In this document: positions 1,878-28,967 of the stretch, one piece after another
How positions within the stretch are numbered: position 1 is the first letter of the stretch
Layout of the letters: each line of letters opens with the position of its first letter
NCBI GenBank assembly: GCA_030427825.1
Contig: JAUICO010000001.1
Span: 30,293 to 94,292, forward strand
Origin: a bacterium
GTDB lineage: Bacteria; Myxococcota_A; Bradymonadia; REDH01
Reading direction: 5' to 3'
Length of the DNA: 64,000 bases
Made by a program: the position numbers and the translations under genes
Notes under the pieces: generated by a model
What the model saw: the letters and a program-made list of their open reading frames with translations, nothing else
Told to the model about the DNA's origin: nothing
Database searches by the model: none

Positions 1878-2561
1878 CTACTGCCGGCTCTCCGCATGCC
1901 GAATGTCCTTTCCTTCGACCAGGTAGATCACCTGTTCGGAGAGATTTGTGACGTGGTCGGCCATTCGCTCAAGATACTTGGCGATCGACTGCACATCGAT
2001 GCCGCGTTTCACGGAGTCGTGGTTCTCGTACATGACCTCAAGCACGTCCTTGAAGACAAGCGCGTAGAGCTCATCGACCGTGTCATCCATGTCGATGACA
2101 GCGCGCGCCTTGTCGGTGTCCCGCTCGAGGAAGGCTTCCATCGTCATCGTGAGCATTTCACGAACCGCGTCGCCCATCTTCGGGATGTCGATGTACGGGC
2201 GTAGCTGCGGTTGCTTCTTCAGGCTGATCGTGCGCTCTGCGACATTGACCGCGAGATCGCCGATGCGCTCAAGGTCCGTCACCATCTTCATTGCGGTTGT
2301 GATGAAGCGCAGGTCAGAGGCCATCGGCTGCCGGCGGGCGAGGATGAGCATGCACAGCTCGTCGGTCTCCATCTCGTCGCGATTGACCTCGCGATCCGCA
2401 AGGATGACCTCAGCGGCACGCTCGTTGTCGCGCTCAAGCAGGGCGTTGATCGCAGCCGCCGTCATGTCGTTGACGCGCTCGGCCATGATGATGATGCGGC
2501 GGCGGAGCTCCTGCAGCTCCTGCTCGAACTCTTCGCTGGTTCTTCGAGAGTGGTCGCTCAT
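1878..2561 (-). CDS. phoU: phosphate signalling complex protein PhoU
   Basis: 227 aa with two PhoU repeats and the typical acidic helical sequence ([12 protein letters not shown]... [16 protein letters not shown]). 4-nt overlap with pstB. Confidence 0.9.
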
Positions 2562-3460
2562 CCGAACTTCCCTGTGATGTAGTCTTCGGTGCGTGTGTCT
2601 TTGGGCGCGGTGAAAATGCGGTCGGTGTTCGTGATTTCGACCAGCTCGCCCATCAGGAAGAACGCGGTTCGGTCAGAGCAGCGCGCCGCCTGCTGCATGT
2701 TGTGTGTCACGATCACAACCGTGTAGTCTGCGCGCAGCTTGGCGATGAGGTCTTCGATACGAGCTGTCGCCACGGGGTCGAGCGCAGAACAGGGCTCGTC
2801 CATGAGAATCACATCGGGCTTTACGGCGATGGTGCGCGCGATGCAGAGACGCTGCTGCTGCCCGCCCGACAGGCTCATGCCCGGTTCGTCGAGCTTGTCC
2901 TTCACCTCGTCCCAGAGAGCGGCTTCCTTCAGGGAGCTCTCTACGATTGTGTTGGCCTCGCTGCCGGACAGGCGCCCGGTCAGAGTGAGTCCGGCGAGCA
3001 CATTCTGCCGAATGGACATCGTGGGGAATGGGTTTGGTTTCTGAAACACCATCCCAATTTTTCGCCGCAGGAGCACCGGATCCACCGAGCTCGAGTACAC
3101 GTTGTTGCCGGCGAACTGCACGTCACCCTTTGCGTAGGCAGACGGAACGAGCTCGTGCATTCGGTTGATGCAGCGAATGAAGGTTGACTTGCCGCAGCCC
3201 GAGGGACCGATGATCGCGGTCACCTCGTTGGCGTGAATGTCCATCGAGACACCCTTCAGCACCTCTTTTGTGCCATAGCCGGCGCGCAGACCTCGGACGC
3301 TGATCTCTGTCGGCCGTGGCTCTTCATCGGTGTCGCCTGTCAGGGGCGTTCGCATGCGGTCCCGGGCGTCAAGGTGGTCGTCGGACTCAGGGTATCCTGA
3401 CGATGCGTATACGTCCATGCGCTGCTCCGTTTCAGTCGGCGTGTTCAGGTTCATGTTCAT
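2558..3460 (-). CDS. pstB: phosphate ABC transporter ATP-binding protein PstB
   Basis: Walker [13 protein letters not shown] signature [16 protein letters not shown], Walker [16 protein letters not shown] start/stop overlap with pstA supports a start at 3460, although the N-terminal extension is about 45 aa longer than typical PstB. Confidence 0.9.
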
Positions 3461-4356
3461 CGAAGTCGTCGCTCAAGTCGGTTGCGAAGGAGGACGGCGA
3501 TCAGGTTCAGGCTGAACACCGTCACCAGCAGGACGATGATGCCTGCGGCTGCGTTCACGGCGAACTCTTCCTGAGGCCGCGAGACCCAGTTGAAGATCTG
3601 AATCGGCAGCGCTGTGAACTCTGAGCTGAGGTTGTTCGGGACGAAGGTCACGTAGGTGAGCGCGCCGATTACGATGATCGGCGCGGTCTCGCCGATCGCG
3701 CGTGAAATCGCCAGGATGGCGCCCGTGAGAATTCCGGGCGCTGCGCTCGGCAGTACGATGCGCCGCGAGACCTGCCAGCGTGTCGCGCCGAGTCCGTAGG
3801 CGGCCTCCCGCAGATGCCGCGGCACCGTCCGGATCGCTTCTCTGGACGCGATAATCACGACCGGCAGAACGAGCAGCGCCAGGGTCGCGCCGCCGGCGAG
3901 CAGGCTGCGTCCCATGCCGACCACACGCACAAAGATCTGCAGGCCCAGCAGGCCGTAGATCACAGAGGGCACGCCGGCGAGGTTCGCCACGTTGATCTCG
4001 ATAACGGTCGCGAAGTAGCGGTCCCAGACCCTGGCCGCGCGTGCCGCGAGGCTGTCACCGACGGTTTCCTGACCGGCGTACTCTTCCAGGTAGAGGGCCG
4101 CGCCAACGCCGATCGGGATCGCCAACGACGCTGTCAGCACCACCAGCATGATGCTGCCGACCAGGCCGGGCAGAATGCCGGCGCGGGACGCGAAACGTGA
4201 GGGGTAGCTGGAGAGAAACTGGCCGTTGAGGCGACCGATGCCGTCTGCGACGACATCGCCGATCAGCAGGGCCAGCAGCCCCAGGGGGATGACGACGGCG
4301 ACGAGACACGCGTTGCGAAACAGGGTCTCGCGCCAGGTTGAGCGTTTTTCCTGCAT
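3457..4356 (-). CDS. pstA: phosphate ABC transporter permease PstA
   Basis: 299-aa polytopic membrane protein of the PstA/PstC permease family. Position between pstC and pstB. Confidence 0.85.
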
Positions 4357-4357
4357 G

Positions 4358-5287
4358 CTATTCGAGCCCCCGGAAGCGTTTTGCCAGTCGCTGCGAGACC
4401 AGGTTTGTCAGGAAGGTCATCACAAAGAGCGCGAAGCCGACCGCGAATATGGTCCGGTACTCGATGGTTCCGGTGGGCGTGTCTCCCATGCTGACCTGCA
4501 CGATGTAGGTCGTCATGGTCATCACAGACTCACGCGGGTCGATGGTCAGGTTGGCCTGCTGACCTGCAGCGATGACCACGATCATGGTCTCGCCGATCGC
4601 CCGGGAGAAGCCGAGGATTACCGCCGCGGCGATCCCGGAGAAGGCAGAGGGCAGGGTCACCCGCAGTATGGTCGAGGTCTTCGAAGCGCCGAGCCCGTAT
4701 GCGGCCTCACGCACCTTGCCGGGCACGGCGTGCAGGGCGTCTTCACTGACGGACGCAATCGTCGGCAGAATCATGATGCCCATCACGATGCCCGGTGCGA
4801 GGGCGTTGAACCCGCCCAGGCCAGGAACAAACTTCTGCAGAATCGGCGTGACCGTGATCAGCGCGAAATAGCCGTACACAACCGTGGGTACACCGGCGAG
4901 AATCTCAATCGCCGGCTTCAGAATCGAGCGCGCTCGGGTGCTCGCAAACTCGCTGAGGTACACGGCCGCCAGAATGCCCAGCGGAAGCGCCACACACATC
5001 GCTACGAGAGACACCAACAGGGTGCCTCCCACGAGGGGCCAGATGCCGAAGTGCGCGTCCGCAAACAGCGGCGTCCACTGGGTGTCAAACAGGAAGTCCC
5101 TGATGGGGACTTCACCGAAGAACTGTATGGTCTGGCTGACCAGAACATACAGGATGCCGACGGTAGTGAAGATCGAGACCAGCGCGCAGATGCGCAGCGA
5201 GTTCTCGATCACGGTCTCGCCGAGGCGTGGCTTACGAGAGAGGTCTACGACCGTCCCGGGGGCGGGTGTCTGAGCTGTATCGCTCAT
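4358..5287 (-). CDS. pstC: phosphate ABC transporter permease PstC
   Basis: 309-aa polytopic permease. Only 1 nt separates it from the pstA start. Lies downstream of pstS. Confidence 0.85.
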
Positions 5288-5354
5288 CTTGTTTGCAGCT
5301 CTCGAGCAGGGGAATCGAAACCGGGAGTATCAGCGGTCGCGACGGGGGCGACTC

Positions 5355-6353
5355 TCAGTTGCCGCGCAGCAGATCTTCAGCCGACACACCGACGCGCGAT
5401 CCACCGCCGCCGAACACCGAACCCGTAGTGCCCGCGTCGAAGCGCTGAGTGGCCAGGTCATAGGTGGAGTCCGGGAGCGGAATGTAGCCGACTTCGCGGA
5501 CGAGTGAACGGCCCTCACGCAGGTAGAAGTGGACGAAGTCCTTGATCTCCTGTCGCTCGGCGGCGGCCTTGTTGATGTAGATGAAGATCGGTCGTGAGAG
5601 CGGCTGGTAGGTTGAGTTCGCCACGGTCTCAGGGCTCGGTTCGATGGGGCCGGCGCCGTTCGTCGCGTCTCCGTCTTCGATGGGGATCACGCGAAGGCGG
5701 TCGCGGTTGGCCTCATAGTAGGCGTAGCCGAAGAAGCCGAGCGCGTTCTCGTCTGTCGCCACACCCTGCACGATGACGTTGTCATCTTCGCTTGAGGTGA
5801 AGTCGCCGCGGCTTGCGTGCTCTTCGCCGACGATGGCCTTTGTGAAGTAGTCGTAGGTTCCGGAGTCGACGCCGGGACCAAAGAGGTTCAGCGGCTGTGA
5901 AGGGAATGTGGGGCGAATCTGGTTCCAGTTCGTGATGGTGCGCTGAGCAGCGGGCTCCCACATGCGCTTCAGCTCGTCGACGGTCAGGTAGTCGACGAAG
6001 GAGTTGCTCGCGTGGACGACGACAGCCAGGCCATCATAGGCGACAGGAACCTCGATGAACTCGATACCCGCCTCGGCACATGCCGAGACCTCTGTCGGCT
6101 TGATCGGGCGCGACGCGCCGGTGATGTCGACCTCGGCGGCGCAGAATTTCTGCATGCCACCGCCGGTGCCGGATACTCCGATCGTGACCCGCGCCACCGA
6201 CGAGCCGAACTCTTCGGCGACCGCTTCGGTGATGGGGAAGACGGTGCTGGAGCCGTCAATGCTGATGGTCTTGACGTCCTTGCCTTTGCACCCAACGGCG
6301 AAGCCGACGAGGGCGATAGCGGTGATGATGATGGTGAGAATTCGCTTATTCAT
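5355..6353 (-). CDS. pstS: phosphate-binding protein PstS (lipoprotein)
   Basis: Signal peptide with lipobox (LVGFAVGC). Periplasmic phosphate-binding fold motifs (SGTGGG, DGSST). First gene of the pstSCAB-phoU block. Confidence 0.85.
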
Positions 6354-6457
6354 GTTTGTTCTCGTTGTTCCCGGAATGGGTGGTGGTTGAGTGATCGGTT
6401 GATGGTGTTTGTGTTTGCGATTGTGATTGAGCGCCGAGGCGTCGTGAGAGGACCGGT

Positions 6458-7588
6458 TCAGAATCCGACCTGAATCTGTGAGCGGGCCTGAACGTTGACG
6501 AGGGCGTCAGAGTCCGGCCCCTGACCTTCGATGCTTGTCGTGATGTCCGACTGCCACTTTACGTTGTGGCCGCGGAAGTAGACCGAGAGTCCGGCGCCGA
6601 TGTCGTGCATGGAGTCACCCTCGCCCACATCGGAGTCCAGGGTCGGGTTCCGGTACGAGTAGCGAAGCACGGGCTGGATGCGGCCGGTGACGAAGTATCC
6701 GGCGTCAACAAAGGCGCTCATGCGCATCCCCTCGGAGCCGTAGCTGAAGGGGTCTTCGTCCGTCTGGTCCATGCCGAAGAAGAAGGCTCCGTTCAGTGAA
6801 AAGCCGCCGGTCTTGAGGATGGCATCGACAGTGAGCGCTGTGCGTCCGGTGTTGTCCGTCATCGCGGCGGCCGGGTCGGTGTCGTACAGCGTGGTGAAGA
6901 GACCGAGGCCAACGCCGAGCTGCAGCTCGCTGTCACGGTTGAATGCAGGCTCGTCGTCGAAACGGATTCCGTTGATACCGTAGCCGAAGCGGGCGGCGAG
7001 GACCGGCTCGAATTCTTCGCCCGCGTTGTACACACCGAAGGCGTATTGGAAGTCGCTCGACTTGCCGAAGTCGTTGTGAATCATGATGCCCAGGTTGCGG
7101 TCCGCGCCGTAGTCGCGGAACGCGGCTTCTGCGCTGGAGCGATCGACATGCTGAAGGCGCGACGACGAGTTCAGGGTCTGCCGCGCGAAGGGCATGTGAA
7201 ACTGCCCGACTCGTACGTGCAGGCCGCACTCCGACTCGTAGTCAAAGTAGAAGTCCTTGAGGCCGATCTTGTCGATGTCGAAGTTCATCTGGATCGTGTA
7301 CCGAAGCTCTGGGCGGTACACATGCCCTGAGAACTTGAGGCGGGCTCGACGCAGGTCGAATTGCCAGTCGTTCTCGCGGCTCTCGTCGGCCCCCCGGTCT
7401 TCGCTGTCGATGACAAGGCGAAACTGAAAGTTCGAGTTGACGCGCAGCGCGAAGTCGCCGTCGTTAGATTGGACACGGAACCCGCTGTCGTAGAGGGCCA
7501 CTCCTTCATGCGGTTCTCCGGCAAGGGCCGAAGTCGCCGTGCAGATTAGAAGAGCGGCAGTGAGGGACGCTATACGAAATCGATTCAT
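6458..7588 (-). CDS. phosphate-selective porin, OprO/OprP family
   Basis: 376 aa with N-terminal signal peptide and the alternating beta-strand pattern of a porin ([16 protein letters not shown]). Placement directly upstream of pstS is typical of phosphate-specific porins. Confidence 0.75.
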
Positions 7589-7638
7589 GTCGATTCAACT
7601 CCACATGTGTTGAAGTATTGATGACGAAGGTCACCAAC

Positions 7639-7702
7639 CTGTGTCGTGCGTGTCTCCTGGCCCCCGATTGTGACAATTGTGTGTCTGTTCTGAAAACATC
7701 TG
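7639..7702. promoter_or_regulatory. candidate Pho-box-like direct repeats in the divergent promoter region between the porin and the hydrolase operon
   Basis: ctgTGTCgtgcgTGTCtcc and tTGTGACAattgTGTGTCTgttcTGAAAAC: TGTCA/TGTGAC cores repeated at about 11-bp periodicity. On the porin strand they read TGTCACA, resembling the E. coli CTGTCAT half-site. A similar TTGTG-rich repeat (gTTTGTGTTTGCGATTGTGATTGag) lies upstream of pstS at 6354-6457. Confidence 0.25.
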
Positions 7703-7853
7703 CGCGCAGGAGAGATTTTTTCGCGGCATCAGGCCGGAATGTCGGATCGCGGGGCCTGTACGCTCCGCGGAGCCGATCCGGTTGTGCCCCTCAATCTCGC
7801 TCTTGTTCTCTCGATGCGAGCCATCGACGCGCTCTCTTTCCGGCGGTGCGCCG

Positions 7854-10229
7854 ATGTGGCAGTTTTGCCCTATGAATGAAGTGCACTTGATACTCCGACC
7901 GTCCTCGCTCGCCATTCTGCCCCTGCTTGCCGCGCTGCTCCTTGCTGCGGCGTGCGACGACGCGGTGGAAGATAAGGACGCGGGGGGTGACGTTGATGCG
8001 GTGGATGCGCCGATCGATATCGATCGGGAACCCGCGCCCACACATGACGGAATCTACGGCTTTGCTAACGGTTGCTACGCTGTTGAGGGTTTCAGCGGCT
8101 TCGCGGAGCCCTCCTTCCTGCAGGCCACGAGCGACGGTGAGGCGTACGAGTTTGCGGCGGAAGGCGCTGAGGATGGTGCGCGCTTTGTCATGCGGGCCTC
8201 AGATCTGGGCACCTATCTGCTCTACGACGCCGAAGAGCATTACTTCGTCGCGGACGCCGCAGCTGACGCCGATCCGGTTTTTCCCCGCCAGGCACGTCTC
8301 GATTCGGACCTTACTTTGATCGACAACGACTTCGTCTCGCCGGCGGAGTGGGTGCTCGAGGAATCTGAGCGCGATGCAGAGCGCTTTCAGCTGCGTCATC
8401 TTCAGACCGGCGACTACCTGACAGTGGATGGGCTCAGCGAGGACGTCACGCAGGCGGCGATCATCTCGTTCTTCGAGACCACAGATTGCGCTGTGTTCCC
8501 GGAGCTTACCGTCGACGCCACCGGCACCCCGGCGTCCGATCCCTGGCCTGACGGCGACGTGTTCGGAATCGCAGAGGTGCACTCGCACATGATGACCAAC
8601 TTCGGCTTCGGCGGCGGCGGCATCTTCCACGGCGCGCCTTTTCACCGGCTCGGCGTGGAACATGCGCTGCCGGACTGCGATATCTACCACGGCGAAGAAG
8701 GCAGGCGTGACATCGTCGGGTACTTTTACGAAGGCGACATCGGCTTCGACTTCGAAGCGCTGATCCCCATCATCGCCGATGCGGAGCTTCCGGAGTTCAA
8801 CCACCACACGGACGGCTATCCGACCTTTACGGACTGGCCGAGCTCCTGGGGCAGCACCACACATCAGGTGATGTACTACCGTTGGCTTGAGCGTGCCTGG
8901 ATGGCCGGGCTGCGGCTCAACGTACAGCTGGCTACCGGCAACTCGGTACTCTGTGATTTCGTCACCGGCATCGACGCACAGAAGACCCGCTATTCGTGCA
9001 ACGACATGGTAGGCGTCGACCGCACGATCGAGGAGTTTCGCAGCCTTGAGCGCTACGTCGACGCCCAATGGGGTGGCCCCGGCCGCGGTTGGTTCCGTAT
9101 CGTCGAGTCCCCTGCCGAAGCGCGTCAGGTCATCAACGAGGGCAAGCTGGCGATCATTCTCGGGATCGAGATTTCGAACCTCTTCGACTGCTTTCTCACT
9201 CCGCCCGCGGGGTTCCCGGTGTGTGACAACGATCAGGTCGTTGCGGCCCTGGATCGCTACCAGGAGCTCGGCGTAAGCGTCGTCTTTCCTGTACACAAAT
9301 ACGACAACGGCTTCGCACCGGGAGATGGCTCCGGAGGCATCATCGAGCTGGGCAACTTCATCAACAGCGGCCACTACTCGAACTTCGAGGAACCCTGCCC
9401 GAGCGACCTGTCCGGCTTCGACGGCGGCAACATCAGCTTCGCAGGCCTGAACCGGGTGCGTGAGGAGTACTTCTCGACACCGCCCTTTGACATGAGCCGT
9501 TTCGCCGATGACCCGATCCTGACGTTGCTGCCGGTGTTGGACGAGCTGCAGGCAGGCTCCGCCACGGGCGAATTCTGCCAGGCGGCGGGCATGACCGACC
9601 TCGGTGAGACTCTGATCCATGAGATGATGCTGCGGGGGATGCTGCCGGATATCGCCCATCTGCCTGAGCGGGCGGTGGCCCGTGCGTTAGAGATCCTCGA
9701 GGACAACAACTACCCGTCGCTGGCGACCCACGGTGGCAGCAGGGACGGCGGTTTGTACCGCGTCGACGGCATAAAGGGTGGCGACTTTGGCGGCTGCGGC
9801 AATCCAGACAATCCCGGGCGGATCGGCGCGCGGTACACCGCTGAAGTGGAGGCACGCGAGGCGGCAGGCATCTTCGGACCGGCTCCGCTCTCCTTTGACC
9901 TCAACGGCTTCGCGTTCGGTCGGCGCCCACGCTTCGGTGAAGACGGCGTCTGCGGCCCGGATCAGCAGAACCCGGTGGAGTGGCCCTTTACATCCTACGC
10001 GGGGGATGTGGAGTTTCAGCAACCACGGCTCGGCGAACGAGTCGTCGACTTCAACACCGAGGGCTTCGCGCACATCGGGTTGCTGCCCGAGCTCATCGAA
10101 GACGCGCGCCGCGACGGGATGAGCGACGAAGACCTGGAACCTCTCTTTCGCTCGGCGGAGTCATACATCCGAATGTGGGAGCGCGCCGAGACGCGTGCCG
10201 CAGAGCTGCGAGCCGAGGCTGCACAGTAA
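7854..10229 (+). CDS. large lipoprotein metallohydrolase, amidohydrolase superfamily, distantly M19 membrane-dipeptidase-like with long insertions
   Basis: Probable true start at MWQ (7854) or MNE (7872), followed by a signal peptide and lipobox LLLAAAC. The order of candidate metal-ligand motifs matches M19 dipeptidases: EVHSH, PVHKYD, LATHGGSRDGG, then the C-terminal VDFNTEG...LPELIEDARRDGMSDEDLEPLF, which is like the M19 C-terminus. At about 790 aa it is twice the usual M19 size. Confidence 0.45.
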   Translation: MWQFCPMNEVHLILRPSSLAILPLLAALLLAAACDDAVEDKDAGGDVDAVDAPIDIDREPAPTHDGIYGFANGCYAVEGFSGFAEPSFLQATSDGEAYEFAAEGAEDGARFVMRASDLGTYLLYDAEEHYFVADAAADADPVFPRQARLDSDLTLIDNDFVSPAEWVLEESERDAERFQLRHLQTGDYLTVDGLSEDVTQAAIISFFETTDCAVFPELTVDATGTPASDPWPDGDVFGIAEVHSHMMTNFGFGGGGIFHGAPFHRLGVEHALPDCDIYHGEEGRRDIVGYFYEGDIGFDFEALIPIIADAELPEFNHHTDGYPTFTDWPSSWGSTTHQVMYYRWLERAWMAGLRLNVQLATGNSVLCDFVTGIDAQKTRYSCNDMVGVDRTIEEFRSLERYVDAQWGGPGRGWFRIVESPAEARQVINEGKLAIILGIEISNLFDCFLTPPAGFPVCDNDQVVAALDRYQELGVSVVFPVHKYDNGFAPGDGSGGIIELGNFINSGHYSNFEEPCPSDLSGFDGGNISFAGLNRVREEYFSTPPFDMSRFADDPILTLLPVLDELQAGSATGEFCQAAGMTDLGETLIHEMMLRGMLPDIAHLPERAVARALEILEDNNYPSLATHGGSRDGGLYRVDGIKGGDFGGCGNPDNPGRIGARYTAEVEAREAAGIFGPAPLSFDLNGFAFGRRPRFGEDGVCGPDQQNPVEWPFTSYAGDVEFQQPRLGERVVDFNTEGFAHIGLLPELIEDARRDGMSDEDLEPLFRSAESYIRMWERAETRAAELRAEAAQ

Positions 10230-11405
10230 ATGAAGATACTCGATGTGTCGGAGTTCTACGCCGAACGAGGCGGTGGGGTGCGCACCTACGTCAACCAGAA
10301 GCTCGACGCGGCGAAAGCCGCCGGCGTGGACATGGTCGTCGTCGCTCCCGGCCCCGAGGATCGTGTCGAAGCGCGTCGCGGTGGCAGAGTCATCTGGATC
10401 AAGGGTCCGCCGATGCCCCTGGACCCGCGCTACTTCCTGCTGCTTCGCGAAGCTGCGGTGCATCAGGCGATCGACGACGAGGCTCCGGACATCATCGAAG
10501 GCTCATCCCCGTGGACCGGCGGTTGGTTTGCAGCGCGCTATCCCGGTCCCGCGAAGAAGGCGTTCATTTTTCACCAGGATCCGGTCGCCGTTTATCCGCA
10601 CACTTTTCTCGATCGCTGGATGACAAGGGACGCCATCGATCGCGCGTCGGGTCCGTATTGGGCGTATCTGCGCCGGCTCAGCGGGCACTTCGATCGCACG
10701 ATTGTCGCCGGACAATGGCTCGCCGAACGCCTCGCCGGATTCGGCATCAGCAACGCCGAGGCGGTACCTTTCGGGATTGAGAAGCATCGATTCTCGCCGC
10801 GGCTCTTCGACCCGCGCTTGCGCGCCGGCATGCTCGAATCGGTCGGCCTCAGTGAAGACGACCACCTGCTAGTAGGCGTGTCGCGTCACCACCCGGAGAA
10901 GCGTGTGTTCACCCTGCTACGGGCGATGGAGATGCTGGCGGGTGAGCGCATTAACGGTCGTCGCGTCGGCTTCGTGATGTACGGCGACGGGCCGATGCGT
11001 CGGCTGGTGGATCGCCGCGCCGCGCGCATTCCCAACGTGCGTATTGCCGGCTTTACGGCGACGCCCGAAGACCTGCCCCGGGCAATGGCGAGCGGCGACG
11101 CATTTCTGCATGGAGGCGCCGCCGAAACCTTCGGGCTCGTGCTTGGTGAAGCGCTGTGCTCGGGATTGCCGCTGATCATTCCGACGGCCGGAGGCTCGTT
11201 GGACTTCCTCGACCCGGACTATGCGGTCGGCTACGAGCCCGGCGATGCCTCGGACTGCCGGCGTGCGATTGTGCGCCTTCTGAGGGGCGACATCGCTGCG
11301 ATGAAGTCGGCTGCGCTGCGCGCGCGCGACGAGCGAGTCCTCAATGTAGGGGATCACTTTCCCGCGTTGTTTGATTCGTACAGCGCGTTGTTGTCTGCAA
11401 ACTAA
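10230..11405 (+). CDS. glycosyltransferase family 4 (GT-B, group 1)
   Basis: C-terminal GT1 motif EAVPFGIEKHRFSP...ETFGLVLGEALCSGLPLI. Its start abuts the stop of the upstream hydrolase (TAA then ATG), so the two are co-transcribed. Confidence 0.8.
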   Translation: MKILDVSEFYAERGGGVRTYVNQKLDAAKAAGVDMVVVAPGPEDRVEARRGGRVIWIKGPPMPLDPRYFLLLREAAVHQAIDDEAPDIIEGSSPWTGGWFAARYPGPAKKAFIFHQDPVAVYPHTFLDRWMTRDAIDRASGPYWAYLRRLSGHFDRTIVAGQWLAERLAGFGISNAEAVPFGIEKHRFSPRLFDPRLRAGMLESVGLSEDDHLLVGVSRHHPEKRVFTLLRAMEMLAGERINGRRVGFVMYGDGPMRRLVDRRAARIPNVRIAGFTATPEDLPRAMASGDAFLHGGAAETFGLVLGEALCSGLPLIIPTAGGSLDFLDPDYAVGYEPGDASDCRRAIVRLLRGDIAAMKSAALRARDERVLNVGDHFPALFDSYSALLSAN

Positions 11406-11430
11406 GATACCTGAATCCGGGGGGATCAGC

Positions 11431-12291
11431 GTGAGAGCGGTATTACGGGGAATTCTTGTGTCCGGTTGTGTGCTGGCTTCGGTCGTCGCGTGTGATGAAG
11501 ACGAAGGCAGCAGCTTCATCGAAGCGCCGGAGAAAGACAGCACCTGCCTGGGACTCTACGGATCGCCGAATGAGCGAACCGGCTTGGATGAGGCGGTGTG
11601 TTTTCCTGCGATCGAAGGCGATGAAATCTGGGAGCCGCGTGCCTGGGACGATGACGGCTTTGCCGAGTTGCTCTCCTGGACCCTGGATGAGCCGATCGAG
11701 GTGATCGCCGACAATCCCTACGCTGAGACTCCGGATCTGGAGCCGAACCCGAACGCGGTGTGTGCGGTGATGCCGACCGGCGAGAATACTTACCGCCTTG
11801 AGACCTTTGAAGGCGCTGACCCGAGAGAGGCGATCGACGCGGCCCTCGACGCCGGTGGCATTGTGACTCACGGCGGCGCCTGCGGTGCCTGCTCGTCACT
11901 CGCCGACCTTGAGGTGTACGCGCGCGTGCCGGACCAGACGCAGCCGGTGCGGGATTGCGGGATTCAGAACCTTGGCGCGCCGATCGAGGATGTTGATCAG
12001 TGCATTCAGGACGCAGTCGGGTTCTCACCACCATGCGCGAGAATCTGGGCGTACAACACGGTGAACGATGGCGAGGTGTGCCGTGACATCTGCCTGAACA
12101 GCGTGCTGATTCTGATGGAGCCGTACAACAATGAAGACGGCTCGCTGAACTCCTGTCTGCAATGCGACGAGGACTTCTCCGGCGGTGTGTTCAAGACGAT
12201 CGCCGGTCGCACTCGCAGAAACTCCGGGCTCGCGTCCGCGATCTGTCGGCCCTGCGAGACGGTGTGGCGCATCGAGCACAACTACGAGTGA
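11431..12291 (+). CDS. Cys-rich secreted lipoprotein, unknown function
   Basis: GTG start at 11431, supported by the signal peptide and lipobox (GILVSGCVLASVVAC). About 20 Cys. Third gene of the hydrolase-GT4 operon. Confidence 0.6.
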   Translation: MRAVLRGILVSGCVLASVVACDEDEGSSFIEAPEKDSTCLGLYGSPNERTGLDEAVCFPAIEGDEIWEPRAWDDDGFAELLSWTLDEPIEVIADNPYAETPDLEPNPNAVCAVMPTGENTYRLETFEGADPREAIDAALDAGGIVTHGGACGACSSLADLEVYARVPDQTQPVRDCGIQNLGAPIEDVDQCIQDAVGFSPPCARIWAYNTVNDGEVCRDICLNSVLILMEPYNNEDGSLNSCLQCDEDFSGGVFKTIAGRTRRNSGLASAICRPCETVWRIEHNYE

Positions 12292-12316
12292 CGTGGCCAC
12301 ATACGATGATGTGTTG

Positions 12317-14473
12317 TTAGAAGCCGAGCTCCCGGAGGAGCGACTGCGCACCCGCGACCTTGTCGAGGTACCAGAGCACATAGCGCGCATCGACGTGGAT
12401 GGACCGGGTCATCGCCGGGTCGAACAGCCAGTCGCTGGCCATCGACTCATAGTTGCCGTCAAAGAGCAGCCCCACCCATTCGCCACGGCCGTTCATTGTC
12501 ACTGAGCCGCTGTTGCCACCTGTGGTATCGAGGGTGCTGAGAAAGTCCACGGGAACAGCACCCAACCGGGGGTCGTGCCATCGAGTCTGTTCGTCCGCTT
12601 CAATGGCATGCAGCAGGCCGTCAGGTGCATCGAAAGGCTCTTCGCCGGTGTGCTTTGCGACGATGCCGTCCACGGTCGTGAAAGGACTGTGCCAGACACC
12701 GTCAGTCGGCGGATACCCGCGTACAAGCCCATAGGTGACGCGCAGCGTGCTGTTTGCGTCCGGGTATACATCGCTGCCGAAAGCCTCGCGGAGGCCGCCG
12801 GTGTAGGCGGGCAGGAGCCGCGAGAGTGCGCCGTCCCGTTGTTGTGATCGGTCCAGGTCAGCTCGCTGAAGTGGATACAGTGATACGACTACTTCGAGCA
12901 TCCGATCGCCGCTCGTCGCGATGTCGCGCTCCCCTTCGCTGAGCAGCGCGAGGCGGAAGTCGGGATCTGTCATCTGTGTGTTTGCGTAGACATCAGCCGC
13001 AGCCGCTGCGGCCGGGTCGGCCTCGTCTGCGTAAGGCCTCAGCAGTGCATCGAATGCCTCGATACGCTGTGTGTCAGGCAGCTGCGAGGCTCGACGTAGA
13101 AAGTAGGCGAAGAGCAGCTCGTCCGCCTCAGCGTCGTAGCTGCGGTTGATGCGTTGAATACGCTCTTCGAGGTTGGGCCACTCGCGTTCCTGGTACGAGG
13201 GCAATCGGTCGACATCGTCCTTGTCCCGCTCGACAGCCAACCAGTAACCGGTGTTTGCGGCGCCGAGGGCTTTGACGGACCAGCGCATCCATCCGAGCAG
13301 GGTCTCGCGCTCCCAGCTCGCGTAGCGGTCGTCGAATACGGCGTTGAGCTCGTCCTGTGCCCGGCTGAACGCTTCGCCGGCCTCGCTGTCCGCAAGCCTT
13401 GCCGTGGCCTGCGCTTCCGTCGCGGCTCGCCGCGTCACCGTGTCGCTGCTGCGAAAGCCGTCGAGCATCCCGAGGTTGTTCTTCCGGTAGTTCGCGAGGC
13501 TGAAGTAGTAGCTGCTGAGTGCGACTTTCACGTCCTCGCTGCGTTCCATCTGCGCCTCGACGATCGCCATCAGCTCGTTCATCGTAGAAATCTGCCACGG
13601 GTAGGAGACTTCCTCGGCGTGGGCGAATTCACGAGCCGTGCGCCAACGGTTCGTTCGGCCCGGGTAGCCCGCGACCATGACAAAGTCGCCCGGATCAAGG
13701 TGCCCGGTGGTTGGGCGCAGGTAGTGTTGCGGCCGCAACGGCACGTTGTCTTCGGAGTACGGCGCCGGGTTTCCGTCGGGTCCGACGTAGGCCCGCAGAA
13801 AGGCGAAGTCGCCGCAGTGTCGGGGCCACATCCAGTTGTCGACCTCGCCGCCAAAGGCGCCAACGGACTCCGGCGGCGCATAGACGATACGCACGTCTTC
13901 GACTTCGAGCTTCTGTATCAGCCGGTACTCGGCGCCTCCGTAGAAATCGACGACCTCGCAGCGCCGGTTTGCCTGCTCTTCGCACTCGGCGACGATCGCT
14001 TTGGTCTCGCGGTCAACCGCACCGTAGCGTGCGACGTCATCCTCTGCGTCTGCAGTCGCGGCCAGGACCCGGGCTGTCACGTCGTCGAGTGACTCTGTGA
14101 TGTATACCCGGCTGCCGGGACCGGCCCACACTTCTTCGGCCCGCGTCGGCGCATGAAAGCCATCGGTGACGAGGTTGTTCTCGCCGGTTGAGTTCATCTG
14201 CAACGCGCCGACGGCGCAGTGATGGTTGGTGACGACGAGGCCATCTTCGGAAACGAAGGAGGCCGAGCACCCGCCAAGGCTGATCACCGCACCGAGATAG
14301 TTGCCCCGCGGGTCGGCGAGCTGCTCCGGGTCCAGGGACAGGCCAAGGCTGCGCAGCTCGTCAGCGCGCTCAGGCAGTTGTTCGGGCAGCCACATACCCT
14401 CGCGGGCCTGCGCGACACCGGCTGTCATGAGCACCGCGAGTGTGGCGAGAGTCCGGAGCGTGAGGTCCGTCAT
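12317..14473 (-). CDS. S46-family dipeptidyl-peptidase (DPP7/DPP11-like)
   Basis: 718 aa with a signal peptide. N-terminal MWLPEQL and GGCSASFVSEDGLVVTNHHC (His-active-site region of S46 peptidases). Size fits the family. Confidence 0.85.
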   Translation of the reverse strand: MTDLTLRTLATLAVLMTAGVAQAREGMWLPEQLPERADELRSLGLSLDPEQLADPRGNYLGAVISLGGCSASFVSEDGLVVTNHHCAVGALQMNSTGENNLVTDGFHAPTRAEEVWAGPGSRVYITESLDDVTARVLAATADAEDDVARYGAVDRETKAIVAECEEQANRRCEVVDFYGGAEYRLIQKLEVEDVRIVYAPPESVGAFGGEVDNWMWPRHCGDFAFLRAYVGPDGNPAPYSEDNVPLRPQHYLRPTTGHLDPGDFVMVAGYPGRTNRWRTAREFAHAEEVSYPWQISTMNELMAIVEAQMERSEDVKVALSSYYFSLANYRKNNLGMLDGFRSSDTVTRRAATEAQATARLADSEAGEAFSRAQDELNAVFDDRYASWERETLLGWMRWSVKALGAANTGYWLAVERDKDDVDRLPSYQEREWPNLEERIQRINRSYDAEADELLFAYFLRRASQLPDTQRIEAFDALLRPYADEADPAAAAAADVYANTQMTDPDFRLALLSEGERDIATSGDRMLEVVVSLYPLQRADLDRSQQRDGALSRLLPAYTGGLREAFGSDVYPDANSTLRVTYGLVRGYPPTDGVWHSPFTTVDGIVAKHTGEEPFDAPDGLLHAIEADEQTRWHDPRLGAVPVDFLSTLDTTGGNSGSVTMNGRGEWVGLLFDGNYESMASDWLFDPAMTRSIHVDARYVLWYLDKVAGAQSLLRELGF

Positions 14474-21892: not shown

Positions 21893-23506
21893 ATGAACGA
21901 GGCTGATGCGCCGGCAATTCGGGCGGATGTAGTCCATCGCGTCGTCGCGTCAGTGATCGCAGAGTCACGGGCCGGCGGTGGTCGTCCGGTCCGCGAAGTG
22001 ATCAACGAGACGCTCTTTCACGAGAAGCGTCGCCTGGCCCGGCGAAGCGAGGGCGGTGACGAAGAGCGTGCCTACTACCGTGAGATCCGCCACAAGCTGC
22101 CGCAGACGTCAGCGATCGATGCGGAGAGCATCGTCTCAGACATTGTCACCCGCTACGCCGACGAGATCTCGGGACACTTCAACCCGTCGATTTATCGCTT
22201 CGCGACCGGTGTCATCAACCCCGGGCTCACCGGTCTGCTCAATGGCCTGTCTCCAAAACGCCTCTTTCGACGCCGCGGGAGTCTGCAGCCCTGGGACGAG
22301 ATGCTGGTTCGGCAGGGCGAGGTCGACAAGCTCCTGAAGTTGCGGGAGCGCGGTACGATCCTCCTCGTTCCCACTCACTCATCCAACCTCGACTCCATCC
22401 TGCTCGGCGCGGCTATCGAGCGCATGGGTTTGCCGCCGTTTACCTACGGCGCCGGACTCAACCTCTTTGAGAATCGCATCGTCGGCTACTTCATGCACAA
22501 CCTGGGCGCGTATACCGTAGACAGGCTGAAGACGGATCCGCTCTATCGACGCGTCCTGAAGGAGTACTCCACAGTCGTCATCGAGTATGGCAGGCACTCA
22601 CTTTTCTTTCCCGGCGGTACGCGCTCACGTTCGGGATGTGTGGAAACACATCTGAAGAAGGGGTTGCTCGGCACGGCGCTCGATGCCTACCGAAACTGCG
22701 CCGCCGCCGGCCACGATCGCCGAGTGTTTGTTGTCCCGGTTACGATCAACTACCCGCTGGTTCTTGAGGCGGCGACCCTGATCGATGACCACCTTCAGAT
22801 CTCCGGACGCGCGCGACACATCATCGTTGACGATGAGTTCAGTCGGCTCGAGCGATGGGCGCAGTATGCCCGCGGCCTGTTTGCCCTGGACATGCACATC
22901 TATCTTCGCTTCGGTGCGGCGATGGATCCCTTTGGGAATCCGGTAGATGAACACGGCGACTCGCTGGATCCGCAAGGACGCGTCATCGATCCGAGCGGAT
23001 ACCTGCGTCGAGGAGGCGAGATCGTCGAAGACGAGCAGCGCGACCGCGAGTACACACGCCTGCTGGCGGCGGCCATCGCGAACGCCTTTCAGAAGAACAC
23101 CGTGGCCTGCGCAACGAATGTGGTCGCGTATGCCCTGTTCTCGGTACTGCGAAACGAAAGCTCCGAGTCGGACCTGTACCGCTTTCTGCGCTCGGTCACG
23201 CCGGAGCTTCCGACGCCGGTGGATACGGTGCTGGAAGAGCTGAGGGCGTTGCTGGAAGAGCTGGCGTACCGGGAGTCCGAGGGCAGGATTCATCTTGGTG
23301 AGATTGTCCGCACGAAGGACGCCGAACTGATACTCGAGCATGCGTTGAAACGGTTCGGCGCATACCACACGGATGCCGCCGCGCGGCGTGATGGCTCCTT
23401 CATCGCCGTCGAGAATGCGAACCTCCTCTTCTACTACCGAAACCGCCTCGATGGGCTCGGGTTGCGCGGTCAGCGTAGCGAAGTACCCGGGAGGATCAGC
23501 CGATGA
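21893..23506 (+). CDS. glycerol-3-phosphate acyltransferase, PlsB-like (short form)
   Basis: Acyltransferase motif I VPTHSSNLDSILL (HX4D), motif III FFPGGTRSRSG, motif IV VPVTINYP. 4-nt overlap with gpsA. Confidence 0.65.
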   Translation: MNEADAPAIRADVVHRVVASVIAESRAGGGRPVREVINETLFHEKRRLARRSEGGDEERAYYREIRHKLPQTSAIDAESIVSDIVTRYADEISGHFNPSIYRFATGVINPGLTGLLNGLSPKRLFRRRGSLQPWDEMLVRQGEVDKLLKLRERGTILLVPTHSSNLDSILLGAAIERMGLPPFTYGAGLNLFENRIVGYFMHNLGAYTVDRLKTDPLYRRVLKEYSTVVIEYGRHSLFFPGGTRSRSGCVETHLKKGLLGTALDAYRNCAAAGHDRRVFVVPVTINYPLVLEAATLIDDHLQISGRARHIIVDDEFSRLERWAQYARGLFALDMHIYLRFGAAMDPFGNPVDEHGDSLDPQGRVIDPSGYLRRGGEIVEDEQRDREYTRLLAAAIANAFQKNTVACATNVVAYALFSVLRNESSESDLYRFLRSVTPELPTPVDTVLEELRALLEELAYRESEGRIHLGEIVRTKDAELILEHALKRFGAYHTDAAARRDGSFIAVENANLLFYYRNRLDGLGLRGQRSEVPGRISR

Positions 23507-24498
23507 GTATTTGTCTGCTCGGCTCCGGAAACTGGGGCACCACCCTCGCGCACCTGATGGCATGCAACGGCCACGACGTGAAGTTGTGGTGTCGCAGCAG
23601 ATCGGTTCGGGACGAGATCAACAAGAAGCACACAAACCGGCGCTACACCGAGGGCTTTCCGATCCACAAAGGTGTGCAGGCAAGCAACGACCTCAGAGCG
23701 TGTGTGGATTCTTCGGATACGATCATTCACGTCATCCCGTCGAAGGCCTTTCGCGAAGTCAGCCGAACGATTGCCCACATGCTTCGCCCGGACCACGTGA
23801 TCATTCACGCCACCAAGGGACTGGAGCAGGGCACTCAGAAGCGTATGAGCGAGATTCTGTGTGAAGAGACCTGTGTGCGACAGATCGGTGTGCTCAGCGG
23901 CCCTAACATCGCCCGGGAAATCCTGGCCGACAAGCCCGCCGGTACCGTCATCGCGACCCGCTTCCCCCGCGTAGCCGCTGAGGCGCAGCGGCTCTTCGCC
24001 GGCCCGCGATTCCGCGTCTACGACAATAGCGACGTTGTCGGCGTTGAGATGGGCGGGGCGTTGAAGAACATCATCGCCATCGCCGGTGGCGTGATCGCGG
24101 CTCTTGAGCTTGGCGAAAACGCCCGGTCATTGTTGATCACCCGTGGACTTGGCGAGATGACCCGCATCGGCATGTCCTTCGGTGCCGAGGCGCCTACCTT
24201 CATGGGATTGGCCGGAATGGGCGACCTCATGGTTACCTGCGCGAGCCCGCACTCCCGTAATCATCGCCTGGGGCGTGCGATGGCTGCCGGAACGGGTCTC
24301 GAAGAGGCGCTGGCGAGTCTTGGGATGGTCGCTGAAGGCGTGAACACCAGCCGCGTGGCGCACGAAATCGCCACCGAGCGCAGGGTGTACGCGCCGGTGG
24401 TCGAAGCCGTGTATCAAATGGTGCACGAAGATCGTGCCCCGTCCGATGTCGCCCGCGAGCTGATGCTGATGGAAGCTCGCCCGGACATCGACTTGTAG
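23503..24498 (+). CDS. gpsA: NAD(P)H-dependent glycerol-3-phosphate dehydrogenase
   Basis: N-terminal ICLLGSGNWGTTLAHL Rossmann motif and the typical GpsA length and sequence (GLAGMGDL, NHRLGRAMA). Confidence 0.9.
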   Translation: MSICLLGSGNWGTTLAHLMACNGHDVKLWCRSRSVRDEINKKHTNRRYTEGFPIHKGVQASNDLRACVDSSDTIIHVIPSKAFREVSRTIAHMLRPDHVIIHATKGLEQGTQKRMSEILCEETCVRQIGVLSGPNIAREILADKPAGTVIATRFPRVAAEAQRLFAGPRFRVYDNSDVVGVEMGGALKNIIAIAGGVIAALELGENARSLLITRGLGEMTRIGMSFGAEAPTFMGLAGMGDLMVTCASPHSRNHRLGRAMAAGTGLEEALASLGMVAEGVNTSRVAHEIATERRVYAPVVEAVYQMVHEDRAPSDVARELMLMEARPDIDL

Positions 24499-28943: not shown

Positions 28944-28967
28944 GCCCGCAACACAGAGCAGATTGGT

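What the first reader, a model, noticed from the sequence alone, without database searches (positions are those of the whole stretch)
7639..12291. An exported double-size M19-like metallohydrolase, a GT4 glycosyltransferase and a Cys-rich lipoprotein form an operon divergent from the Pho regulon block
The operon starts about 270 bp from the phosphate-porin gene and shares with it an intergenic region containing Pho-box-like TGTCA/TGTGAC repeats. This suggests co-regulation by PhoB/PhoR under phosphate limitation. The first gene product is a lipoprotein whose motif order (HSH, HKYD, THGGSRD, DFNTEG-LPELIEDARRDGMSDEDL) matches M19 membrane dipeptidases and the amidohydrolase superfamily. At about 790 aa it has several hundred residues of insertions. 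A GT4 glycosyltransferase gene abuts its stop codon. A Pho-regulated hydrolase-glycosyltransferase pair recalls the PlcP-Agt lipid-remodelling module of phosphate-starved bacteria (established knowledge), but with a completely different hydrolase fold and an exported rather than cytoplasmic enzyme. That would be a new variant, if it is real. The alternative is a peptide-scavenging dipeptidase, consistent with the S46 peptidase and OPT transporter nearby.
Basis: inference. Interest (0 to 1): 0.5.

Follow-up and report, generated by a model that had tools for sequence, protein, structure and literature searches.

The report
M19-like lipoprotein hydrolase beside unrelated genes
The three genes are real and the first does encode an exported, double-size relative of renal-type (M19) zinc dipeptidases, but its pairing with the glycosyltransferase and its position next to the phosphate-uptake genes are found only in this genome, so there is no evidence for a new phosphate-starvation lipid-remodelling module.

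Summary
Three co-directional genes lie 265 bp from a divergent porinO/P-pstSCAB-phoU block. They encode a lipoprotein hydrolase (7854/7872-10229), a GT4 glycosyltransferase (10230-11405, ATG abutting the TAA stop) and a Cys-rich lipoprotein (11431-12291).

- None of 20 distinct hydrolase loci, 4 GT4 loci, 4 lipoprotein loci or 80 PstS loci repeats any part of the arrangement.
- GT4 orthologues instead sit beside a second GT4, and usually an HpnN-like MMPL transporter.
- The intergenic TGT-rich repeats are non-random. However, the one good Pho-box match is on the minus strand, 99 nt upstream of the porin ATG. That is the orientation and distance seen upstream of pstS in relatives.
- Only 1 of 19 hydrolase homologues has such a box.

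Most likely this is a lineage-specific juxtaposition of three unrelated envelope genes. The hydrolase is an uncharacterised M19 subfamily, probably a peptide or amide hydrolase. The lipoprotein has no known fold.

The parts
7640..7687 (.). Cluster of TGT-rich phased repeats in the divergent intergenic region. On the plus strand, TGTGTC, TGTCTC, TGTGAC and TGTGTC lie at 7640, 7651, 7669 and 7680. The best Pho-box-like 18-mer, CAGACACACAATTGTCAC, reads 7687->7670 on the minus strand.
   Evidence: TGTSWC-N5-TGTSWC occurs only here in the window: 2 matches against 0.15 expected, with a post hoc pattern. The minus-strand site is the second-best of about 128,000 positions for an E. coli-derived Pho-box matrix. 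Its p is 0.027 against dinucleotide shuffles of the intergenic region. It starts 99 nt upstream of the porin ATG in sense orientation, as do boxes upstream of pstS in relatives.
7854..10229 (+). Lipoprotein hydrolase, 791 aa (785 aa from the alternative ATG at 7872). In numbering from 7872: signal peptide with lipobox Cys28, beta-trefoil domain at about aa 60-205 (nt 8049-8486), and M19-like TIM barrel with large insertions at about aa 230-785 (nt 8559-10226).
10230..11405 (+). Cytoplasmic GT4 (GT-B) glycosyltransferase of 391 aa. It belongs to a clade most similar to lipid head-group glycosyltransferases.
   Evidence: Pfam matches Glyco_transf_4 and Glycos_transf_1. The best NCBIfam hit is GlcN_PG_synth (GpgS) over its full length at 173 bits, far below the 480-bit equivalog cut-off. 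The closest solved sequence is PimB' 3okc at E 1e-7. Orthologues sit beside a second GT4 in 4 of 4 loci and an HpnN-like MMPL in 3 of 4.
11431..12291 (+). Cys-rich lipoprotein of 286 aa with lipobox VVAC. It has 13 invariant Cys, including three CxxC motifs. Its family is uncharacterised.
1878..7588 (-). Divergent phosphate-uptake block given as context: porin O/P (6458-7588), pstS (5355-6353), pstC/pstA (4358-5287, 3457-4356), pstB (2558-3460) and phoU (1878-2561).
   Evidence: Pfam and NCBIfam assignments.
12317..14473 (-). Convergent S46 (DPP7/DPP11-type) dipeptidyl-peptidase gene, given as context and not part of the unit.
   Evidence: Pfam Peptidase_S46 at E 6.6e-221. No S46 homologue lies near the hydrolase homologues of the 17 genome loci L001-L017.

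Best explanation
The three genes are a lineage-specific juxtaposition of three functionally independent envelope genes. They are probably co-transcribed in this genome because the gaps are 0 and 25 bp. They are not a conserved module and are not demonstrably Pho-regulated.

**Gene 1** encodes a lipid-anchored, exported enzyme.
- After signal peptidase II cleavage at Cys28, a flexible tether carries a beta-trefoil domain. By analogy with ricin-B, HA1 and CBM-type trefoils, this domain is inferred to bind a glycan or another surface ligand.
- Next comes an M19-type TIM barrel. Its inferred binuclear metal site uses H237/H239 (strand 1), E433 (strand 3), H596 (strand 5) and H620 (strand 6). H475 and D726 would be catalytic helpers.
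- The most likely chemistry is Zn-dependent hydrolysis of a peptide or peptide-like amide bond in the periplasm or at the cell surface. This is inferred from the fold, not shown.

**Gene 2** is a cytoplasmic GT4 enzyme. In relatives its orthologues work with a second GT4 and an HpnN-like MMPL lipid exporter, so it most likely glycosylates a membrane lipid. This is inferred.

**Gene 3** is an exported, disulfide- or metal-rich lipoprotein of unknown fold and function.

**The intergenic Pho-box-like element** most likely serves the divergent porin-pstSCAB-phoU operon.
For: **Fold**
- Pfam M19 scores above its threshold.
- A profile search of PDB sequences finds only M19 dipeptidases, weakly at E 0.006-0.4, plus a few chance-level matches of E 0.08 or worse to unrelated proteins.
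- The AF2 model has pLDDT 89.
- The candidate metal ligands are invariant across 43 homologues of 54-61% identity.

**Lack of linkage**
- 0 of 17 genome loci carry GT4, lipoprotein, porin, PstS or S46 homologues within 10 kb.
- The same holds for three further hydrolase loci: L018, L028 and L112.
- No conserved neighbour exists among the Myxococcota loci.
- 0 of 4 GT4 loci and 0 of 4 lipoprotein loci share the arrangement.
- 0 of 80 PstS loci carry any of the three genes.

**GT4 partners**
- A second GT4 is adjacent in 4 of 4 loci and an MMPL in 3 of 4. The one MMPL scanned against NCBIfam (L027) is HpnN-like.

**Pho box**
- The best site is on the minus strand and sense for the porin, 99 nt from its ATG.
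- In 74 PstS-relative upstream regions, strong boxes are sense 22 times and antisense 8 times, about half of them 60-120 nt upstream.
- The best plus-strand site in the intergenic region ranks 111th in the window, which is chance level.
- Only 1 of 19 hydrolase homologues has a strong sense box.
Against: - The 0 bp and 25 bp gaps, with no terminator-like site between the genes, argue for one transcript. Co-transcribed genes are often functionally related.
- The four TGTSWC repeats are direct repeats on the plus strand. By the E. coli rule that is the sense orientation for the hydrolase. The minus-strand assignment relies on one good half-site (TGTCAC) plus a degenerate one.
- The matrix was built from E. 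coli boxes recalled from memory. PhoB control of the plus-strand promoter is therefore not excluded.
- All relatives examined are at most 63-71% identical, so no genome from the same genus was available.
- The first-strand motif is HxH rather than the HxD of canonical M19 enzymes. The substrate could therefore differ from dipeptides.
- Residue-level equivalence with M19 ligands was inferred from motif order and predicted strands, not from a superposition.
Confidence: 0.7

Rival explanations
1. A PhoB-activated operon would encode a new kind of lipid-remodelling module. The exported M19-like hydrolase would remove phospholipid head groups, and the GT4 would glycosylate the product, analogous to PlcP-Agt.
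For: - The operon is divergent from a complete pst-phoU block, with a non-random cluster of phased TGT-rich repeats in the shared 265 bp region.
- The repeats are direct on the plus strand.
- The GT4 belongs to a clade nearest to enzymes that glycosylate lipid head groups: the GpgS model at 173 bits and PimB' as the closest PDB sequence.
- One hydrolase homologue (L008) has a strong sense Pho-like box of 16.8 bits.
- PlcP often forms a Pho-box-preceded operon with agt (PMC4796936).
Against: - The hydrolase has a peptidase/amidase (M19) fold, not the phospholipase C activity of PlcP.
- It is exported, whereas the GT4 has no signal peptide.
- The pair is absent from every relative examined: 20 hydrolase loci, 4 GT4 loci and 80 PstS loci.
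- The GT4's conserved partners are a second GT4 and an MMPL transporter, not a hydrolase.
- The only good Pho-box match is oriented and spaced for the porin gene.
- 18 of 19 homologue upstream regions lack a box.
Confidence: 0.06
2. A GpgS/GpgD-like or HexS/HexD-like pathway. The GT4 would add an N-acetyl-hexosamine to a membrane lipid. After flipping, the exported amidohydrolase-fold enzyme would deacetylate it to give a cationic aminoglycolipid.
For: - The best curated family for the GT4 is GlcNAc-PG synthase GpgS, matched over its full length.
- In P. aeruginosa gpgS is followed by a deacetylase gene. An extracellular location has been considered for the analogous HexD (PMC12713373).
- From general knowledge, the amidohydrolase superfamily includes N-acetyl-sugar deacetylases such as NagA.
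Against: - The GT4 scores 173 bits against a 480-bit equivalog cut-off.
- The hydrolase's structural neighbours are M19 dipeptidases, not the COG3233-type deacetylase GpgD.
- The three-gene unit contains no flippase-like membrane protein.
- The adjacency is not conserved in any relative.
Confidence: 0.04
3. A dedicated peptide-scavenging system. The S46 dipeptidyl-peptidase would release dipeptides in the periplasm, the M19-like lipoprotein would cleave them, and the OPT transporter would import the products as one functional neighbourhood.
For: - The M19 fold is established.
- The S46 gene converges 25 bp from the unit, and an OPT gene lies 13 kb away.
Against: - No S46 homologue lies within 10 kb of the hydrolase in the 17 genome loci.
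- No conserved neighbour exists at all among the Myxococcota loci.
- OPT is distant and separated by unrelated metabolic genes.
- The dipeptidase activity itself remains plausible and is part of the best explanation. Only the system-level linkage is rejected.
Confidence: 0.1

Closest known systems
MEROPS family M19 / Pfam PF01244 membrane (renal) dipeptidases, e.g. human DPEP1/DPEP3, P. aeruginosa PvdM (3b40), Rhodobacter 3ly0, Listeria 3neh
   Same: - Pfam scores above its gathering threshold.
- The order of conserved motifs is the same: a His motif on strand 1, Glu after strand 3, His after strands 4, 5 and 6, and Asp on strand 8. All are invariant in the family.
- The location is extracytoplasmic, as for DPEP1 and PvdM (general knowledge).
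   Different: - It is twice the size, at 785-791 aa.
- Identity to solved M19 structures is only 15-17%.
- The Pfam model aligns only about 62 of its 319 positions.
- An N-terminal beta-trefoil domain has been added, and there are long insertions between barrel strands.
- Strand 1 reads HxH, the general amidohydrolase pattern, instead of the HxD of M19.
- It is anchored as a bacterial lipoprotein.
- No member has been characterised.
PlcP-Agt phosphate-starvation lipid-remodelling operon (Sebastian et al. 2016, PMC4796936)
   Same: A hydrolase gene is followed directly by a GT4 gene, near Pho-box-like sequence.
   Different: - PlcP is a phospholipase C, whereas this hydrolase is an exported M19-fold enzyme.
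- The pair is not conserved in relatives.
- The GT4 is nearer to GpgS/PimB'-type enzymes than to diacylglycerol glycosyltransferase models (MGlcDAG synthase scores 28 bits).
- The box is oriented towards the pst side.
GpgS, N-acetylglucosaminyl-phosphatidylglycerol synthase of P. aeruginosa (NF053787; PMC12713373), and PimB' (3okc)
   Same: It is a GT4 GT-B enzyme that aligns over the full length of the GpgS model at E 7e-51. PimB' is the closest solved sequence. Orthologues are linked to lipid-transporter (MMPL) genes.
   Different: - The score of 173 bits is far below the 480-bit equivalog cut-off.
- There is no gpgD or gpgF next to it.
- The conserved partner is a second, larger GT4.
- The acceptor lipid and the donor sugar are unknown.
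Ricin-B / HA1 / CBM13-CBM42-type beta-trefoil lectin domains
   Different: No Pfam trefoil family is detected, and ligand-binding residues were not assessed. A fusion to an M19 barrel has not been described: a literature search for M19, dipeptidase and beta-trefoil together returned no paper.

Membership tests
Peptidase M19 (PF01244) | Sequence match to the family model above the curated threshold | tested here: met
   38.9 bits against a cut-off of 26, at E 7.5e-10. Only aa 558-622 align, to model positions 143-204 of 319.
Peptidase M19 (PF01244) | Renal-dipeptidase-type TIM-barrel fold | tested here: met
   [not shown]
Peptidase M19 (PF01244) | Binuclear zinc site: HxD on strand 1, bridging Glu on strand 3, and His on strands 5 and 6 | tested here: inconclusive
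   E433, H596 and H620 are invariant and lie at the ends of the predicted strands. Strand 1 carries H237-x-H239 rather than HxD.
Peptidase M19 (PF01244) | Dipeptidase activity | not testable with these tools
   This needs an enzyme assay.
PlcP-Agt lipid-remodelling module | The hydrolase is a PlcP-type phospholipase C | tested here: not met
   The fold is an M19 dipeptidase, and no other Pfam family matched the protein at E <= 0.01.
PlcP-Agt lipid-remodelling module | The glycosyltransferase is an Agt-type diacylglycerol glycosyltransferase | tested here: inconclusive
   It is a GT4 enzyme. Its best curated match is GpgS at 173 bits, while MGlcDAG synthase scores only 28 bits. No Agt sequence or model was available for direct comparison.
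PlcP-Agt lipid-remodelling module | Recurrent hydrolase-glycosyltransferase adjacency across genomes | tested here: not met
   0 of 20 distinct hydrolase loci and 0 of 4 GT4 loci show it.
Pho regulon (PhoB-activated promoter) | Pho box in sense orientation at the -35 region of the gene's own promoter | tested here: not met
   The best plus-strand site in 7589-7853 scores 4.3 bits and ranks 111th in the window, which is chance level. The 11.8-bit site is on the minus strand and serves the porin side. Caveat: the matrix is derived from E. coli.
Pho regulon (PhoB-activated promoter) | Induction by phosphate limitation that depends on PhoB | not testable with these tools
   This needs expression data.
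Pho regulon (PhoB-activated promoter) | Conserved linkage to pst/pho genes in relatives | tested here: not met
   0 of 80 PstS loci carry the hydrolase, GT4 or lipoprotein. 0 of 17 hydrolase loci carry PstS or the porin.
GpgSDF glucosaminyl-PG pathway | GpgS equivalog score | tested here: not met
   173 bits against a cut-off of 480.
GpgSDF glucosaminyl-PG pathway | Adjacent GpgD (COG3233) deacetylase and GpgF (COG0392) flippase | tested here: not met
   The neighbours are an M19-fold lipoprotein and a Cys-rich lipoprotein with no family match. The required gene set is described in PMC12713373.
Bacterial lipoproteins | Signal peptide ending in a lipobox with an invariant Cys | tested here: met
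   The hydrolase has LLLAAA-C28 (Cys at least 90% conserved) and the third gene has SVVA-C21 (Cys at least 90% conserved). Both models show a low-confidence tether after the Cys. No dedicated lipoprotein predictor was run.

The most novel reading that the evidence does not exclude
In this particular lineage, the shared intergenic region would act as a bidirectional PhoB-dependent promoter. Phosphate starvation would then switch on a recently assembled envelope-remodelling operon. Its parts would be an exported beta-trefoil/M19-like hydrolase with a non-dipeptide substrate, a lipid head-group GT4 enzyme, and a new-fold Cys-rich lipoprotein.
Probability: 0.06. Interest if true: 0.55.

Novelty: new variant of a known kind. 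Interest (0 to 1): 0.2.

Why it matters
As proposed, the finding would have been a new route to phosphorus-sparing membrane lipids. The evidence does not support that, so its value is mainly negative. It shows that tight gene spacing next to a pst operon is not enough to infer a Pho-regulated module.

Three modest leads remain:
- A large, uncharacterised subfamily of double-size M19-like lipoproteins with a lectin-like domain. It has more than 1400 clusters at 90% identity and is common in Myxococcota and Bradymonadia. Its substrate is unknown.
- A GT4 + GT4 + HpnN-like MMPL gene set that looks like an undescribed glycolipid pathway.
- A widespread Cys-rich lipoprotein family whose confident predicted fold matches no solved structure.

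Tried and rejected
- An exact look-up of the window's own hydrolase (P0001) to identify the source contig found nothing. Cluster look-ups gave no organism names.
- A sequence-only PDB search with the single hydrolase protein gave nothing significant. The family profile gave only weak M19 hits.
- A metagenome scan with the porin found no relatives. PstS was used instead.
- The afdb50 fold library was unavailable.
- Rfam found no RNA family anywhere in the window, so there is no riboswitch or leader in the 5' region.
- The sigma-70 and terminator consensus scans found no promoter in 6300-12500. They found only two weak terminator-like sites, both inside coding sequence.
- A search for MMPL or second-GT4 partners inside the window found none.
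- Pfam scans of long, possibly fused members of the lipoprotein family gave only isolated hits (SASA, Big_5 and Met_synt_B12), which are uninformative.
- The conserved downstream gene of the gammaproteobacterial hydrolase homologues has no Pfam match.
- A literature search for M19 plus beta-trefoil returned nothing.
- One script was submitted incomplete and produced no output.
- I considered a defence-system reading because of the GT4-conflict Pfam hit (36.8 bits). I rejected it because the generic GT4 models score higher and the context is not defence-like.


Full report
**1. What is there**

The minus strand carries a complete phosphate-uptake block:

| Gene | Coordinates | Evidence |
|---|---|---|
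| Porin O/P | 6458-7588 | PF07396 |
| PstS | 5355-6353 | TIGR02136, 288 bits |
| Two permeases | 4358-5287, 3457-4356 | Pfam |
| ABC ATPase | 2558-3460 | Pfam |
| PhoU | 1878-2561 | Pfam |

Three plus-strand genes diverge from this block across 265 bp:
- The first ORF has ATG codons at 7854 and 7872. The 7854 start gives the 791-aa protein found identically in the protein collection as P0001.
- Its TAA stop at 10227-10229 is followed immediately by the ATG of the second gene at 10230.
- The third gene starts at a GTG at 11431, 25 bp after the second gene's stop, behind a GGGGGA Shine-Dalgarno-like run.
- An S46 dipeptidyl-peptidase gene converges 25 bp downstream.

No promoter-like site was found in 6300-12500. 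The only two terminator-like matches lie inside coding sequence and number fewer than chance expects. Rfam finds nothing in the window.

**2. The hydrolase**

*Sequence evidence.* Pfam assigns Peptidase_M19 above its gathering score (38.9 bits against 26). Only residues 558-622 align, to 62 of the model's 319 positions. NCBIfam gives nothing. A single-sequence PDB search is not significant. A profile of 43 homologues finds mostly M19 dipeptidases, and only weakly (E 0.006-0.4).

*Architecture.* The protein therefore reads as follows (numbering from the 7872 start):
- signal peptide with a lipobox (Cys28, conserved in at least 90% of homologues);
- a disordered tether;
- a beta-trefoil domain at about aa 60-205;
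- an M19-type barrel at about aa 230-785, carrying long insertions.

They are H237, H239, H475, K476, H620 and D726. They sit at the ends of predicted barrel strands, in the order expected for M19 enzymes. One difference is that strand 1 reads HxH instead of HxD. I could not do a residue-level superposition because model coordinates are not exposed. Ligand equivalence is therefore inferred.

*Distribution.* The family is large, with more than 1455 hits among the 8000 candidates scored. Members are 750-830 aa long. It is found mostly in Myxococcota (Polyangiaceae, Kofleriaceae, Nannocystaceae, Sandaracinaceae) and Bradymonadia. Relatives of about 30% identity occur in marine Gammaproteobacteria. 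Sources label it 'microsomal dipeptidase-like' or 'hypothetical'. I found no characterised member, and no paper combining M19, dipeptidase and beta-trefoil.

**3. Is the hydrolase-GT4-lipoprotein unit a module?**

No. The loci examined are summarised below.

| Query | Distinct loci examined | Loci sharing the window's arrangement |
|---|---|---|
| Hydrolase, one genome per species, up to 10 kb each side | 17 | 0 (no GT4, lipoprotein, porin, PstS or S46 homologue at tblastn E <= 1e-5) |
| Hydrolase, additional contigs including the closest relatives at 62-63% identity | 3 | 0 |
| GT4 orthologues, 54-58% identity | 4 | 0 |
| Lipoprotein homologues, 54-71% identity | 4 | 0 (a solitary gene in unrelated contexts) |
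| PstS, 48-69% identity | 80 | 0 carry any of the three genes |

Further observations:
- An all-against-all comparison of neighbouring ORFs found no conserved neighbour among the Myxococcota loci.
- All four GT4 loci have a second GT4 next door. In the three loci compared, these second GT4s are 37-51% identical to one another.
- Three of the four GT4 loci have an adjacent MMPL transporter. The one scanned against NCBIfam (L027) is HpnN-like.
- One Bradymonadia locus (L027) also has a fatty-acyl-AMP ligase, an ACP and a PKS.
- The window itself contains no MMPL and no orthologue of the second GT4.

That condition is met.

**4. The Pho-box question**

*The repeats are real.* Four TGTSWC hexamers lie within 46 bp. 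Across the window the same hexamer occurs about once per 1150 strand-positions. The pattern TGTSWC-N5-TGTSWC occurs only here, twice, against 0.15 expected. That pattern was defined after seeing the sites.

*Matrix scan.* I scored the window with a two-half-site matrix of 11 bp spacing, built from E. coli Pho boxes recalled from memory.
- The second-best site in the whole window, on both strands, is CAGACACACAATTGTCAC at 7687->7670 on the minus strand (11.8 bits).
- Its p is 0.027 against dinucleotide shuffles of the intergenic region.
- It is in the sense orientation for the porin gene and starts 99 nt upstream of the porin ATG.
- The best plus-strand site in the region scores 4.3 bits and ranks 111th, which is chance level.

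*Does the E. coli rule transfer?* I scored 74 upstream regions of PstS relatives.
- Strong sites (at least 10 bits) are sense in 22 regions and antisense in 8.
- The clearest are of the form TGTCAC-N5-TGTCAC.
- About half of them lie 60-120 nt from the start codon.

The window's site fits this pattern for the porin-pst operon.

*Hydrolase homologues.* Upstream regions of 19 homologues average 1.1 bits, against 7.2 bits for pstS. Only one (L008, 16.8 bits) has a strong sense box.

*Caveat.* The four repeats are direct on the plus strand. The minus-strand call depends on one perfect and one degenerate half-site. No organism-specific matrix exists. Bidirectional control is therefore not excluded, only unsupported.

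**5. The GT4 enzyme**

- It has no signal peptide and has typical GT-B domains.
- Its best curated match is the GlcNAc-phosphatidylglycerol synthase GpgS model, aligned end to end at E 7e-51 and 173 bits. This is far below the 480-bit equivalog cut-off.
- Its orthologues score similarly, at 151-154 bits.
- The closest solved sequence is the phosphatidylinositol-mannoside mannosyltransferase PimB'.
- Together with the MMPL linkage in relatives, this points to a membrane-lipid acceptor. It does not point to diacylglycerol specifically, and it does not indicate cooperation with the hydrolase.
- In P. aeruginosa, gpgS works with a COG3233 deacetylase and a COG0392 flippase (PMC12713373). Neither is present in the unit.

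**6. The Cys-rich lipoprotein**

- It has a lipobox (VVAC) and 13 invariant cysteines, including three CxxC motifs.
- It matches no Pfam or NCBIfam family.
- There are 630 homologues in the word-indexed search. The exhaustive search finds 1396 representative clusters at 50% identity.
- Occasional fusions (SASA esterase, Big_5) are uninformative.
- Its function is unknown. An exported, disulfide-rich or metal-binding module is all that can be said.

**7. Verdict**

The M19-like fold, the export signal, the GT4 identity and the tight spacing are right.

The best explanation (confidence about 0.7) has three parts:
- The unit is a lineage-specific juxtaposition of three independent envelope genes.
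- The Pho-box-like element belongs to the porin-pst operon.
- The hydrolase is a new architectural variant of the M19 family, a beta-trefoil plus an expanded barrel with HxH. It is most likely a Zn-dependent peptide or amide hydrolase acting outside the cytoplasm.

Interest is low (0.2). The side leads are worth recording but are not surprising to a specialist. They are the GT4-GT4-MMPL gene set, the new-fold lipoprotein family and the uncharacterised M19 subfamily.

Noticed in passing
[not shown]
   Followed up: partly
L020 6225-9167; L021 8001-13695; L027 4821-12594; L109 1-4884: Orthologues of the window's GT4 always sit beside a second GT4, usually a larger one. In 3 of 4 loci they are also adjacent to an MMPL transporter; the L027 one scores as HpnN-like. 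L027 additionally has a GT32 enzyme, a fatty-acyl-AMP ligase, an ACP and a PKS with an aminotransferase domain. This looks like an undescribed glycolipid synthesis and export gene set. The window lacks these partners.
   Followed up: partly
L008 674-691: One hydrolase homologue (47% identity, Pseudomonadota MAG) has a strong sense-oriented Pho-box-like site, CTGTCATGCGCCTGTCGC, at 16.8 bits. It lies about 70-130 nt upstream of its start, depending on which ATG is used, just downstream of a transposase fragment. It is the only such case among 19 homologues.
   Followed up: partly
L013 12160-13617; L014 12497-13855; L016 12216-13571 and 16805-18256; L017 4163-5644: The gammaproteobacterial homologues of the hydrolase (about 30% identity; Spongiibacter, Marinobacter, Oceanococcus) share a conserved downstream gene of 450-490 aa with no Pfam match. 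L016 carries two hydrolase paralogues.
   Followed up: partly
window 6444-6461 (-): A weaker Pho-box-like site, CTGAACCGGTCCTCTCAC (6.8 bits), lies on the minus strand at the porin stop codon, about 90 nt upstream of pstS. Its shuffle p is about 0.08, so it is not significant on its own.
   Followed up: partly
window 12678-12695 (-): The highest-scoring Pho-box-matrix site in the whole window, CTGGCACAGTCCTTTCAC (14.7 bits), lies inside the S46 peptidase coding sequence. It is probably a chance match.
   Followed up: no
window 21893-24498 (+): A 537-aa PlsC-type acyltransferase gene overlaps the start of gpsA (NAD-dependent glycerol-3-phosphate dehydrogenase). This is a phospholipid-synthesis pair about 10 kb from the finding.
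   Followed up: no
window 27888-30479 and 32909-34372 (+): Three sizeable ORFs of 351, 503 and 487 aa have no Pfam match at E <= 1e-5.
   Followed up: no
L111 2094-4073: In the closest relative of the Cys-rich lipoprotein (71% identity), the gene is preceded by a 659-aa lipoprotein with no Pfam hit on record. Its sequence has Cys-rich N-terminal repeats, and the remainder looks to me like a right-handed beta-helix. It is not a hydrolase homologue.
   Followed up: no
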